A stretch of 64,000 nucleotides of DNA, taken from positions 13,235 through 77,234 of the IMG/VR virus record IMGVR_UViG_3300023184_000086. The stretch is one strand, 5' to 3'. Numbering within the stretch: the stretch's first letter is position 1; each line of letters opens with the position of its first letter. Position numbers and translations under genes: made by a program. The notes beneath the pieces are model-generated. The model saw nothing but the letters and a program-made list of their open reading frames with translations. It made no database searches and had not been told where the DNA came from. Shown piece after piece: positions 8,976 through 11,196 of the stretch. The stretch comes from a virus.

Positions 8976-9275
8976 TTAATCGTCGTTTTTGACATCACCT
9001 TCTATGATTTTAAGATGTTTAGCGGTTTCTTTATTATCCCTTAATTTACGTATGCCACGAGTAAATTTGTTAGGATCTGATGCTTTAATACTGTTAATAA
9101 GCCTGCGTTCTAACTCATAAGCATCTTCTGGGGAGAAATTTTCTTTAATAAGTGCTAATAGATTGATAGCACTATCAATAACATGTGTAGCCCTTGATTC
9201 AATAATGGCTTCGCTATTCTTCTTTTCCGTTATGGAATTAAGTTCTTCTAACAGACTACGAGTTGTTCTTTTCAA
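8976..9275 (-). CDS. Hypothetical helical protein (start revised to TTG, MKRTTRSLLEEL)
   Basis: TAAATA at 9295-9300 and SD AAGGA precede TTG 9275. Confidence 0.7.
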   Translation of the reverse strand: MKRTTRSLLEELNSITEKKNSEAIIESRATHVIDSAINLLALIKENFSPEDAYELERRLINSIKASDPNKFTRGIRKLRDNKETAKHLKIIEGDVKNDD

Positions 9276-9336
9276 GATGTTATCCTTGTTATGGTATTTA
9301 GTAGAGTATAGCACATACCTTTGGAGAAATAAAGAC

Positions 9337-9374
9337 TTGTAAATTGTGCGGTCGCAGCATACAATGTATAAATA
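9337..9374 (+). promoter_or_regulatory. Sigma70-like promoter with a TGC-N4-GCA (PhaR-like) box in the spacer, followed by late promoter TATAAATA
   Basis: TTGTAA (9337-9342), 17 nt containing TGTGCGGTCGCAGCA, TACAAT (9360-9365), then TATAAATA (9367-9374). Confidence 0.6.
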
Positions 9375-9437
9375 CTTTACTCAGTAGAAACCATGAGAGA
9401 CTACTGAGAATATGTTATATACAAAGGAAAATAAAAT

Positions 9438-9611
9438 ATGTTAAACACAATCACTGAATACTTCCAAAAGATGTTTCAGAATTTCAGTAAGCCACAAACT
9501 TACAGTTCCGCATTAGAAGAATACATTGTTAGACACGCACCCACAGATTCTTGTGATGTAGATCGTCTAACCCGTCAATTTGATATAATACATTCACGCA
9601 GAGGATGGTAA
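9438..9611 (+). CDS. Small protein (57 aa), DUF3563-like
   Basis: Below the ORF-track cutoff; SD AAGGA; MLNTITEYFQKMFQNFSKPQTYSSALEEYIVRHAPTDSCDVDRLTRQFDIIHSRRGW. Confidence 0.7.
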   Translation: MLNTITEYFQKMFQNFSKPQTYSSALEEYIVRHAPTDSCDVDRLTRQFDIIHSRRGW

Positions 9612-9613
9612 TC

Positions 9614-9748
9614 ATGAAAATAGTAAAAGCAATCTATAACTTTTTAGGCGAGATGGGTAAGGCCCATGCTGCTTCAAATTTAGCACGTAGCGGAGATTAT
9701 AAGGGCGCAAAACGTCTTATGATGGAAGATTTTAAGGGCTGGATTTAA
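9614..9748 (+). CDS. Small amphipathic protein (44 aa)
   Basis: Below the ORF-track cutoff; SD GAGGA; MKIVKAIYNFLGEMGKAHAASNLARSGDYKGAKRLMMEDFKGWI. Confidence 0.7.
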   Translation: MKIVKAIYNFLGEMGKAHAASNLARSGDYKGAKRLMMEDFKGWI

Positions 9749-9767
9749 TTGCTCATTAAATTTGCAA

Positions 9768-9796
9768 TATAAATAACAATGCAGTACAATTACTGC
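9768..9796 (+). promoter_or_regulatory. Late promoter TATAAATA plus 5' leader hairpin
   Basis: TATAAATA at 9768-9775; GCAGTA-CAAT-TACTGC at 9781-9796. Confidence 0.6.
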
Positions 9797-9821
9797 TAGA
9801 CACATACACAAGGAAATAAAA

Positions 9822-10103
9822 ATGTTTAATAAAATGTTCGCACCATACCTAACGCTTGAAGCACATATCGAAGCGTTCCAAGAAACCAAGCGAGGCCTAA
9901 CAGATAAGATCATTACTGATCCTACGCTGAACAAGGCAGCACACGATTATATTGATGCTCAGACTGAATTTGCTAAAATGTTAGCACATAACTTTACTGA
10001 CATCGCAAAGTATTCTATGGATTCCATTGCTGGTAAATGGTTTCCTAAGAATGAAGAAGCAGTTGAGGCTAAGACTGCACGTAGCAAGACGGCTGCTGCC
10101 TAA
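9822..10103 (+). CDS. Amphipathic helical protein, phasin-like (93 aa)
   Basis: SD AAGGA; all-helical amphipathic pattern with an Ala/Lys-rich C-terminal tail. Confidence 0.55.
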   Translation: MFNKMFAPYLTLEAHIEAFQETKRGLTDKIITDPTLNKAAHDYIDAQTEFAKMLAHNFTDIAKYSMDSIAGKWFPKNEEAVEAKTARSKTAAA

Positions 10104-10128
10104 GACATACACACACAAGGAGAAAATT

Positions 10129-10404
10129 ATGTCAAACACAATTAAAGCACCTGAAGTAAAATTCAACAAGAACGGTTATGAAATCCGTACAGACATTCTA
10201 GACATGGCTAAAGGACTAGTTAGTGAACAATATCACTCTAAGTTCCGCGGCTGGGAAATGTCAGTTCAGAAAGATCCAAAGACTGGCCAAGTGGTTACTA
10301 CTGTAGCAATGCCAGAATTTCCAGGACTTGAAAAAGTTTTAGAAACAGCAGAAAAAATGTATTCATTTGTTAATGCTGGTAGTACTACCACATCTAAAAA
10401 ATAA
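10129..10404 (+). CDS. Hypothetical phage protein (start revised to MSNTIKAPEV, 91 aa)
   Basis: SD AAGGAG upstream of ATG 10129. Confidence 0.8.
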   Translation: MSNTIKAPEVKFNKNGYEIRTDILDMAKGLVSEQYHSKFRGWEMSVQKDPKTGQVVTTVAMPEFPGLEKVLETAEKMYSFVNAGSTTTSKK

Positions 10405-10434
10405 TATAATAAAAATATATAGGACGTAGTCCAG

Positions 10435-10463
10435 AAGCCCCGGCATTAGATCGGGGCTTTTTT
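10435..10463 (+). terminator. Rho-independent terminator between convergent genes
   Basis: AAGCCCCG/CGGGGCTT stem followed by a T-run. Confidence 0.85.
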
Positions 10464-10464
10464 A

Positions 10465-11196
10465 TTACCAAGTCATTTGTTTATGATATTTCCATTTAAC
10501 TATCTTCCACCCAAAGAAGTCAGATAATGCACCAGTACCGTCAATTTTAAGAGTGTTCATTAAATTAACATAATATTCTCTGTAAGATATTTTACAAAGA
10601 TATAATTTATTATGTCCCATAGCAAATGGTACAAGTGTGGGATTCATACTGTTAAATTTTACCCAACCCTCGAGCACTCCTGTCCACCAGTGGTTCATTA
10701 TATCATCTAATATAACTACACCCTCATTACTAATAATAGTATTAGCAAGTGCTAGATCATTCATTACATGGATAGGCGTATGCCCACCATCTATTGAAAA
10801 GAATTTAATTGAGCCCGGCTGAATCATTTTAGTTAATTGTAAACTAGAATCGGTGCTATCACCCTGTATGATAAGTGTATTGCGTCCTTGGTGTCTATCA
10901 AGAGTTTCTAAATTTTTTCTAAAAGAAACAAGTTGTCCTGCACCTGATTTATCTACGTTAAGATGTTGATCATTGAATATATCAATAGCATATGATTTAA
11001 AATTTTCATCTACAGTTTGATTTAACAGTAAAAATAATTTGCCATCTTGTATACCAATTTCAGCAACCCCACCTCTTTGATTTATGGGTTGTGTGGATAA
11101 TATATCAAGTGTGTTAAAAATATCATCATAACACCATCCGTGTACTGTTTCAAAATGAGGGTAATATTGTTCTATGTAGGGATTGATAAATGCCAT
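10465..11196 (-). CDS. Class I SAM-dependent methyltransferase (Methyltransf_24-like)
   Basis: GW, VAEIGIQDGK, AIDIF, IQGDS, FSIDGGH and GVVILDD motifs. Confidence 0.85.
   Translation of the reverse strand: MAFINPYIEQYYPHFETVHGWCYDDIFNTLDILSTQPINQRGGVAEIGIQDGKLFLLLNQTVDENFKSYAIDIFNDQHLNVDKSGAGQLVSFRKNLETLDRHQGRNTLIIQGDSTDSSLQLTKMIQPGSIKFFSIDGGHTPIHVMNDLALANTIISNEGVVILDDIMNHWWTGVLEGWVKFNSMNPTLVPFAMGHNKLYLCKISYREYYVNLMNTLKIDGTGALSDFFGWKIVKWKYHKQMTW

What the first reader, a model, noticed from the sequence alone, without database searches (positions are those of the whole stretch)
9337..10463. Self-contained operon possibly wired to the host PHA-granule regulon (PhaR-like operator plus phasin-like proteins)
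Seen: the only plus-strand multi-gene operon in the window. TGTGCGGTCGCAGCA fills the 17-nt spacer of a sigma70 promoter (TTGTAA/TACAAT), which is followed by a late promoter, four small helical proteins (two missed by the ORF track) and a terminator. Known: PhaR represses phasin genes through TGC-N3/4-GCA boxes and is titrated away by PHA granules. Inference: the 93-aa amphipathic protein with an Ala/Lys tail is phasin-like and the 57-aa protein is DUF3563-like. The phage could therefore sense host carbon-storage state and coat or mobilise PHA granules.
Basis: partly seen in the sequence, partly recalled or inferred. Interest (0 to 1): 0.75.

Follow-up and report, generated by a model that had tools for sequence, protein, structure and literature searches.

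The report
Phage operon behind PhaR-like operator
A giant lake phage carries a four-gene cassette whose first two small genes, and the repressor-binding-like site in their promoter, resemble bacterial genes controlled by the carbon-storage (PHB) regulator PhaR, but its supposed granule-coating "phasin" protein is not one by any sequence test.

Summary
OBSERVATION: confirmed. The promoter hexamers, 15-nt GC-rich dyad, two TATAAATA boxes, four small genes and terminator lie where stated. All four genes are conserved in hundreds of uncultured lake-phage contigs.

INTERPRETATION: partly supported.
- The phage carries a betaproteobacterial tmRNA, so a betaproteobacterial (Burkholderiales) host is likely.
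- The dyad recurs at the same promoter position in 50 of 100 distinct related phage loci (3.5% expected). In 8 it is a canonical PhaR box (TGC-N3-GCA). These resemble the boxes I found upstream of Burkholderiales phasin, phaR and DUF3563 genes.
- The window's own copy is one base wider (TGC-N4-GCA), a spacing I found only once, and weakly, upstream of the host phasin genes examined. PhaR binding here is therefore unproven.
- O1 has clear homologues, each with a coupled O2-like mini-gene, in 17 of 121 genomes of one small-genome Burkholderiales genus. O1 is a plausible distant relative of DUF3563 (hhalign 12-64%).
- 23 of 34 bacterial DUF3563 genes sit behind strict PhaR boxes. I found no paper mentioning DUF3563.
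- O3 is not a detectable phasin, and O3 and O4 have no match in 201 Burkholderiales genomes.

Function on PHB granules is untested.

The parts
9337..9342 (+). -35-like hexamer TTGTAA of promoter P1
   Evidence: A cTTGnnA is kept at this position in many related loci and in bacterial DUF3563 promoters.
9345..9359 (.). Dyad TGTGCGGTCGCAGCA (TGC-N4-GCA-GCA). Operator-like, a PhaR-box relative one base wider than canonical.
   Evidence: Single copy in the contig. A dyad is present at the same place in 50 of 100 distinct related loci: 31 N4, 8 N3-GCA, 11 N3-GCC. Background in random 50-nt windows is 3.5%. It is inverted in L048. It does not fold better than shuffles as RNA (z -0.92).
9360..9365 (+). 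-10-like hexamer TACAAT of P1
   Evidence: TAnAAT-like in many relatives.
9367..9374 (+). T4-type late promoter TATAAATA (late promoter 1)
   Evidence: The TAAATA core lies 47-72 nt upstream of the O1 start in nearly all of the 100 distinct loci (5 lack it).
9380..9408 (+). 5' leader hairpin CUCAGUAG...CUACUGAG
   Evidence: Fold -9.7 kcal/mol, z -2.33. The CAGTAGAAAC motif follows TAAATA in most related loci shown.
9438..9611 (+). O1, 57 aa. Host-shared small protein, distant DUF3563-like.
   Evidence: hhalign against 19 bacterial homologues: 97.7%, E 1.7e-12. Homologues in 17 of 121 genomes of one Burkholderiales genus. Against DUF3563: Prob 12-64%.
9614..9748 (+). O2, 44 aa (47 aa from ATG 9605), coupled to O1
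   Evidence: Conserved in 29 of 80 loci. A coupled 31-33-aa ORF sits in the same position behind 15 of the 19 bacterial O1 homologues listed. Sequence support is weak: hhalign 6%.
9762..9790 (+). Second promoter region: TTGCAA-17-TACAAT, with TATAAATA (9768-9775) inside the spacer and a half-box AATGCAG
   Evidence: The same sequence lies upstream of O3 in L013. Hairpin GCAGUA/UACUGC: z -2.68.
9822..10103 (+). O3, 93 aa, phage-only protein with an Ala/Lys tail. Not a detectable phasin.
10129..10404 (+). O4, 91 aa. The most conserved gene of the cassette; phage-only; no known family.
   Evidence: Mean column identity 77% over 34 sequences. 582 IMG/VR relatives. No Pfam, PHROG, NCBIfam or PDB match. 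0 of 201 Burkholderiales genomes.
10433..10465 (+). Intrinsic terminator: GC stem followed by a T run
   Evidence: -20.8 kcal/mol, z -3.83. An RNA-library contig of run X4 ends at 10456.

Best explanation
The stretch is a mosaic expression cassette of an uncultured freshwater jumbo phage that probably infects a small-genome Burkholderiales bacterium.

ANATOMY
- O1 and O2 form a small two-gene module shared with that bacterial lineage and distantly related to DUF3563.
- The module came with, or kept, a sigma70-type promoter whose spacer holds a PhaR-type dyad.
- O3 and O4 are phage-only genes added behind a second promoter.

PROPOSED WORKING (inferred, not shown)
- Early in infection the host RNA polymerase can use P1 only when the dyad is free.
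- Host PhaR, or a protein with the same TGTGC/GCACA half-site preference, sits between -35 and -10 and blocks it.
- PhaR leaves DNA when it is titrated by nascent PHB granules.
- Early expression of the cassette would therefore follow the host's carbon-storage state.
- Late in infection the T4-type late promoters directly downstream (9367, 9768) drive the genes regardless.

SHOWN: the anatomy; the conservation; the homology of O1 to bacterial genes; the PhaR-box context of bacterial DUF3563 genes; canonical boxes in some phage relatives.

INFERRED: the host identity; PhaR binding to the one-base-wider box of this window; what the four proteins do.
For: HOST
- beta_tmRNA RF01850 on the same contig: 127 bits, E 1e-39.

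BOX FAMILY
- Published PhaR/PhbF consensus, read as passages: TGCRNYGCASMA (PMC6201568); TG[N]TGC[N]3GCAA and CTGC[N]3GCAG (PMC3206438).
- 26 of 33 Burkholderiales phasin upstream regions carry TGC-N3-GCA.
- In the candidate host genus, 5 of 5 genomes encode PhaR, and 5 of 5 phaR upstream regions carry N3 boxes such as atgtTGCATTGCAG.
- The same string stands upstream of O1 in phage loci L237, L238 and L241.

PHAGE LOCI
- A dyad is present in 50 of 100 distinct O1-upstream regions, against 3.5% of random 50-nt windows.
- 3 of the 4 strict N3 boxes in 383 kb of phage loci lie upstream of O1 homologues.
- The box is inverted in L048.
- It always overlaps a -35 or the spacer.
- Host and phage promoters are nearly colinear: L138 versus L230.

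GENES
- O1 against bacterial homologues: hhalign 97.7%, E 1.7e-12. 17 of 121 genomes of one genus.
- 23 of 34 DUF3563 loci have a strict box within 200 nt upstream, against 0.039 expected per window.
- One DUF3563 gene lies next to phaM.
- One O1 homologue lies next to a PHB depolymerase gene.

OTHER
- No PhaR DNA-binding domain in this contig or in 5 large related phage records, one of them 96% complete. A PhaR acting here would therefore be the host's.
- Late promoters.
- Contigs from 4 lake RNA libraries cover 9427-10456.
Against: - The window's own box is TGC-N4-GCA. The contig has no strict N3 box on either strand.
- In the 33 phasin upstream regions, N4 matches were rare and weak (L103, L111, L134). 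All boxes I recorded upstream of DUF3563 and phaR genes are N3. No data show that PhaR tolerates +1 spacing.
- Half of the distinct related loci (50 of 100) have no dyad at all, so it is dispensable.
- The closest bacterial O1 homologues mostly lack a canonical box. Only 2 of 19 have TGC-N3-GCA. By my count of the printed sequences, 15 of 19 share a conserved TGCTGTCATGCAA-type element instead.
- The O1-DUF3563 link is weak: Pfam 0 hits for the window protein, 2 of 37 relatives at E>=0.029; hhalign falls to 12% with the larger alignment.
- The host is inferred, not shown.
- Loci are related to one another, so counts are not independent events.
Confidence: 0.45

Rival explanations
1. Relic operator. 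The dyad is a decaying remnant of the bacterial promoter that travelled with O1-O2. The one-base insertion abolished PhaR binding. In this phage the cassette is simply transcribed early (sigma70) and late (TATAAATA) without any link to PHB.
For: N4 spacing is rare and weak upstream of the host phasin genes examined and was not recorded upstream of DUF3563 or phaR genes. 50 of 100 distinct phage loci have lost the dyad, and 11 more carry GCC instead of GCA. The late promoter core is kept in nearly all loci.
Against: The N4 form is itself conserved across loci whose flanks have diverged (31 of 100 distinct regions). It includes perfect palindromes, such as TGTGCG-AC-CGCACA in L053, and an inverted copy in L048. 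This argues for selection on a dyad-binding protein rather than drift.
Confidence: 0.25
2. Another regulator. The N4 dyad (half-sites TGTGC/GCACA) is the operator of a different dimeric DNA-binding protein. This could be phage-encoded, or a host factor other than PhaR, that took over a former PhaR site.
For: The spacing differs from every PhaR box collected here upstream of DUF3563 and phaR genes. GTGCRNNYGCASM occurs 9 times in five related phage genomes, against 1 for the reversed-pattern control.
Against: The window's contig has a single copy of the box. A phage regulator would be expected to have several operators. I did not examine the 9 N4 sites for position. No candidate regulator was identified. 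The half-sites and the 3' GCA extension are those of PhaR boxes.
Confidence: 0.15
3. O3 is a phasin-like amphipathic protein and the cassette's products coat or mobilise host PHB granules.
For: - The nearest named ESM-Atlas clusters to O3 are Phasin_2 (13% of members, score 0.86) and PHB_acc (0.84). The tool rates both as leads that are often chance.
- 3 of 108 O3 relatives give weak Phasin_2 hits, best E 0.01.
- Related cassettes carry a small alpha/beta hydrolase and a cupin.
- The PhaR-type context of O1 (see the best explanation).
Against: - No Phasin, Phasin_2, PhaP_Bmeg or PHA_gran_rgn hit for O3 at E<=1.
- hhalign 0.3-0.7%, no better than the O4 control (1.3%).
- The weak custom-HMM hits align to inconsistent regions.
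- O3 profile: 0 of 201 Burkholderiales genomes.
- The whole-library profile search found only 107 small proteins of 33-203 aa. Only 3 of the 108 sequences scanned gave weak Phasin_2 hits.
- The hydrolase's best PHA-depolymerase hit is E 0.09.
Confidence: 0.12

Closest known systems
PhaR / PhbF (AniA) operators of PHB regulons in Alpha- and Betaproteobacteria
   Same: - TGC...GCA dyad with a 3' GCA/CAA extension.
- Position overlapping the -35/-10 of a sigma70 promoter.
- Identical 12-14-mers in some phage relatives and in bacterial phaR, phasin and DUF3563 promoters.
   Different: - The window's copy has 4, not 3, bases between TGC and GCA.
- It sits on a phage genome and is followed at 7 nt by a T4-type late promoter.
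- No binding data exist.
DUF3563 (PF12086), small proteins of Burkholderiales of unknown function
   Same: - Size of 50-60 aa.
- An N-terminal hydrophobic helix followed by a ...[ED]xY[LI]...D..[DE][LV][ED].(L/R).R.[FL] block.
- Full-length hhalign register.
- Promoter with a PhaR-type box.
   Different: - Below the Pfam threshold: no hit for the window protein; 14.8 bits against a 26.9 cut-off in a relative.
- Two extra residues in the central block.
- Always coupled to a second mini-gene (O2). I saw no similar partner downstream of the 10 bacterial DUF3563 loci inspected.
Phasins (Phasin_2, PF09361)
   Same: Small, Ala/Lys/Glu-rich composition and an Ala/Lys-rich C-terminal tail in O3. A 20-column local similarity appears in hhalign.
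   Different: No significant sequence or profile similarity in any test. O3 is about half the length of the 175-200-aa Burkholderiales phasins collected.
Phage genes wired to host nutrient regulators (Pho boxes and NtcA sites in cyanophage promoters) - recalled, from no call
   Same: A host transcription-factor site inside a phage promoter, in front of host-derived genes.
   Different: Different regulator (PhaR, carbon storage), different host group, and different cargo (tiny proteins of unknown function rather than a metabolic enzyme).

Membership tests
PhaR operator | TGC-N3-GCA core (consensus TGCRNYGCASMA) | tested here: not met
   The window has TGC-GGTC-GCA-GCA (N4). The strict N3 pattern is absent from the whole contig. 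It is met in 8 of 100 distinct related phage loci.
PhaR operator | 3' extension S-M-A after GCA, and TGTGC/GCACA-type half-sites | tested here: met
   GCA-GCA in the window. The same extension occurs in host boxes.
PhaR operator | Overlaps the -35/-10 of the regulated promoter | tested here: met
   The box fills 15 of the 17 spacer bases between TTGTAA and TACAAT. The layout is the same in bacterial DUF3563 promoters L138 and L143.
PhaR operator | A PhaR protein is present in the cell | tested here: inconclusive
   No PHB_acc_N on the phage side. 5 of 5 genomes of the candidate host genus encode it. The host itself is inferred from the tmRNA and from O1 homologues.
PhaR operator | Bound by PhaR and released by PHB | not testable with these tools
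   Needs EMSA, footprinting or reporter assays.
Phasin_2 (PF09361) | Match to the family HMM at or above the gathering score | tested here: not met
   No hit at E<=1 for O3. 3 of 108 relatives give sub-threshold hits, best E 0.01.
Phasin_2 (PF09361) | Profile-profile similarity to bona fide phasins | tested here: not met
   hhalign 0.6% (A1) and 0.3% (A4) against 33 phasins; the O4 control gives 1.3%. 0.7% against PhaP2 alone.
Phasin_2 (PF09361) | Phasin-like fold and granule binding | not testable with these tools
Localisation needs experiments.
DUF3563 (PF12086) | Match to the family HMM at or above 26.9 bits | tested here: not met
   O1: 0 families. The six-frame search of the contig found none at E<=10. 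2 of 37 relatives hit, best 14.8 bits.
DUF3563 (PF12086) | Profile-profile similarity over the full length | tested here: inconclusive
   Prob 64%, E 6.5e-5 (10 sequences). Prob 12%, E 2.4e-3 (29 sequences). Host plus phage O1: 59%. Controls <=0.5%. The O1 profile also hits the DUF3563 gene in G092:C87 at E 0.029.
T4-type late promoter | TATAAATA a few tens of bases upstream of the start codon, on the coding strand | tested here: met
   Copies at 9367 and 9768. By my reading, 7 of the 8 in-window copies are so placed. The late sigma factor (gp55-like) was not searched for.

The most novel reading that the evidence does not exclude
A widespread clade of freshwater jumbo phages reads the PHB-storage state of its Burkholderiales host through the host repressor PhaR. 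It has captured a PhaR-regulated small-protein module (O1-O2, kin of DUF3563). This module, together with the phage-only O3 and O4, acts at PHB granules to tap the cell's carbon reserve during infection. As a corollary, DUF3563 would be an unrecognised member of the bacterial PhaR regulon.
Probability: 0.15. Interest if true: 0.85.

Novelty: new variant of a known kind. Interest (0 to 1): 0.6.

Why it matters
If PhaR controls this cassette, it would be the first case I could find of a phage promoter tied to the host's carbon-storage (PHB) regulon. Searches for PhaR plus polyhydroxybutyrate plus 'phage genome', and for phasin plus 'auxiliary metabolic' plus phage, each returned one unrelated paper. 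It would sit beside the recalled Pho- and NtcA-dependent cyanophage promoters.

It also gives a testable handle on three sets of orphan proteins:
- O1/O2 and their bacterial homologues.
- DUF3563, for which no paper was found. Here 23 of 34 bacterial genes sit behind PhaR boxes.
- O4, among the most conserved small proteins of an abundant lake-phage clade.

It also points to a likely host lineage for that clade.

Tried and rejected
SEARCHES THAT FOUND NOTHING
- DNA and protein searches of isolated phages: no match for the region, a 436-aa neighbour, O3 or O4.
- Only the upstream neighbour (8976-9314, phrog_11854 virion protein) links to PA5oct-like and other jumbo phages.
- PDB profile searches for O3 and O4: best E 0.3.
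- NCBIfam: nothing for O1-O4 beyond E 0.029 noise.
- Rfam on 9250-10520: nothing near gathering score.
- Cluster names: all 'hypothetical protein'.

IDEAS REJECTED
- The dyad as an RNA hairpin: z -0.92.
- A wider phage 'PhaR regulon'. Of 17 strict N3 sites in five related phage genomes (control 8), one is the O1 site. I looked at 15 others. 14 lie inside long ORFs and one (L316) is ambiguous. G107:32697 was not looked at.
- Homology between the phage cupin or hydrolase and the cupin or hydrolase next to bacterial O1 genes: BLASTP E>1.
- An O2-like partner behind bacterial DUF3563 genes: none seen in 10 loci.

WEAK OR LIMITED RESULTS
- RNA libraries. Contigs of 4 lake metatranscriptome runs from 4 studies cover the four genes. 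They are contigs of relatives (85-99% alike), cannot show starts or strands, and may contain DNA. The near-absence of cover over 9288-9419 and beyond 10475 is not evidence.
- Papers on Polynucleobacter and jumbo phages (passages only) did not bear on this clade.
- The first phasin/phage literature search matched 'phasing' and was useless.
- Supplementary files were not consulted.
Full report
WHAT THE DNA IS
- The window is bases 13235-77234 of a 77-kb IMG/VR viral contig rated 22% complete, that is, a fragment of a jumbo phage. GC is 33-47%.
- No isolated phage matches the region or its proteins.
- The upstream neighbour (8976-9314, minus strand) belongs to phrog_11854, 'virion structural protein'. 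It has 39-47% identical relatives in PA5oct-like and other 280-440-kb phages.
I confirmed it: Rfam beta_tmRNA RF01850, 127 bits, E 1e-39. This makes a betaproteobacterial host likely.

- All elements are at the stated places: TTGTAA 9337-9342; a 17-nt spacer holding TGTGCGGTCGCAGCA (9345-9359); TACAAT 9360-9365; TATAAATA 9367-9374; four ORFs (O1 57 aa, O2 44 aa, O3 93 aa, O4 91 aa); and a strong terminator hairpin at 10433-10461.
- A second TTGCAA-17-TACAAT, with TATAAATA inside its spacer, precedes O3.
- By my reading, 7 of the 8 TATAAATA copies in the window lie 26-102 nt upstream of a same-strand start. T4-type late promoters are therefore credible.
- The genes are real: O4 has 582 confirmed IMG/VR relatives; O3 has 123; the O1 family has 2796.
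- The divergent arrangement of neighbour gene, then O1, O2..., O4, recurs in related contigs.
- Related cassettes often carry a cupin and a small alpha/beta hydrolase between O2 and O4.
- Contigs from four lake RNA libraries cover the four genes. This is only a hint of expression.

THE BOX
- In print, PhaR/PhbF sites are TGCRNYGCASMA, TG[N]TGC[N]3GCAA and CTGC[N]3GCAG (passages read).
- I collected Phasin_2 genes from 101 Burkholderiales genomes, of which 66 have one. 26 of 33 usable upstream regions carry TGC-N3-GCA boxes, often two about 55 bp apart.
- In the phage clade I compared 143 O1-upstream regions, 100 of them distinct. In the 50 nt before the TAAATA core, 31 have TGC-N4-GCA, 8 have TGC-N3-GCA, 11 have TGC-N3-GCC and 50 have none. 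In random phage windows the rates are 1.8%, 0.7%, 1.1% and 96.5%.
- The N3 copies (for example atgtTGCATTGCAGCA in L237, L238 and L241, and TGCAATGCAGCA in L040) match boxes found upstream of bacterial phasin, DUF3563 and phaR genes.
- In L048 the box is inverted, as expected for a dyad-binding protein.
- The box always overlaps a sigma70-type -35 or spacer. The phage promoter is nearly colinear with bacterial DUF3563 promoters.
- The window's own copy is the N4 form. This is a spacing I found only rarely and weakly upstream of host phasin genes and not at all upstream of DUF3563 or phaR genes. The contig has no strict N3 box.
- No PhaR DNA-binding domain is encoded by this contig or by five large related phage records.

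O1 AND O2 ARE SHARED WITH BACTERIA
- Pfam gives nothing for O1, and only 2 of 37 relatives touch DUF3563 weakly.
- Profile-profile comparison with DUF3563 proteins taken from Burkholderiales genomes aligns the full length in one register. Prob is 64% with 10 sequences and 12% with 29; controls are <=0.5%.
- Searching 201 Burkholderiales genomes with the O1 profile gave its best hit in a 1.7-Mb genome (G094). It also hit a DUF3563 gene weakly.
- Within G094's genus, 17 of 121 genomes have 48-64-aa homologues, with E down to 1e-10. hhalign of phage against bacterial O1 gives 97.7%, E 1.7e-12.
- 15 of the 19 are followed by a coupled 31-33-aa ORF in the O2 position.
- These bacterial loci are low in GC (0.37-0.46). 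Four genomes have two copies.
- One locus abuts a PHB depolymerase gene (PHB_depo_C, E 5e-82).
- Five of five such genomes encode PhaR, with canonical N3 boxes at phaR.
- Against the model: only 2 of the 19 bacterial O1 promoters have TGC-N3-GCA. Most share a different conserved element.

A BY-PRODUCT
- 23 of 34 Burkholderiales DUF3563 genes have a strict PhaR box within 200 nt upstream. The expectation is 0.039 per window, from 16 sites in 87.8 kb of the same loci.
- One lies directly downstream of a PhaM gene.
- No paper in the searchable library mentions DUF3563.

O3 AND O4
- O3 fails every phasin test: Pfam; hhalign 0.3-0.7%; a custom HMM.
- A profile search of 1.84 billion proteins returned 107 small proteins. 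Of the 108 sequences scanned (these plus the window's O3), 3 gave sub-threshold Phasin_2 hits.
- The O3 profile hits 0 of 201 Burkholderiales genomes.
- The ESM-Atlas lists Phasin_2 and PHB_acc clusters as its nearest named neighbours, at 0.86 and 0.84. By the tool's own calibration these are leads only.
- O4 is extremely conserved (77% mean column identity) and has no relatives outside phages.

VERDICT
- The anatomy is right.
- The 'PhaR-like operator plus DUF3563-like gene' reading is better founded than the sequence alone could show.
- The phasin reading is not supported.
- The window's own operator is a non-canonical variant whose binding partner must be tested.

Noticed in passing
Bacterial loci L137-L152 and L260-L281 (Burkholderiales genomes): DUF3563 genes carry strict PhaR-type boxes within 200 nt upstream in 23 of 34 loci, often 15-50 nt before the start. 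One lies just downstream of phaM. This suggests DUF3563 is an undescribed member of the PhaR regulon.
   Followed up: yes
window 9375-9437 and related loci: A conserved leader follows the late promoter: the motif CTCAGTAGAAAC forms the 5' arm of a hairpin (z -2.33). The arms differ between loci in ways that keep pairing (for example CTAAGTAG...CTACTTAG in L237). A CA-rich stretch and the ribosome-binding site follow.
   Followed up: partly
window 9802-9821 and 10105-10128; G000:C1:7750-7783: The same ACATACACA...AAGGA leader precedes O3 and O4. A similar stretch (89% identity over about 35 bases) occurs elsewhere in the contig on the minus strand.
   Followed up: no
window 9272-9314 (minus strand): The listed GTG start of the upstream neighbour (9314) is probably too early. 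Homology starts near residue 17. A TTG preceded by AAGGA lies about 40 nt downstream, and a CTAAATA late-type box lies just upstream of it. This is read from the sequence only.
   Followed up: no
L015:1905-2900 and many related loci: Related cassettes hold a cupin (138 aa, Cupin_2 E 2e-7) and a 191-aa alpha/beta hydrolase (Abhydrolase_6 E 1e-5) between O2 and O4. In L214 the O2 frame runs on into the hydrolase.
   Followed up: partly
L288-L308 (genus of G094): The bacterial O1-O2 modules sit in low-GC stretches (0.37-0.41 for most) and occur twice in four genomes. They share a conserved upstream element of the TGCTGTCATGCAAT type and a TAACCCTA leader motif. Neighbours include GNAT acetyltransferases, an alpha/beta hydrolase, a CDO-like cupin and a PHB depolymerase.
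   Followed up: partly
L028 and L074 (same IMG/VR contig): One 81-kb viral contig carries two O4 paralogues about 4.3 kb apart.
   Followed up: no
G106, G107, G108 (related phage genomes): The N4 pattern GTGCRNNYGCASM occurs 9 times in five related phage genomes, against once for the reversed control. Their positions relative to genes were not examined.
   Followed up: no
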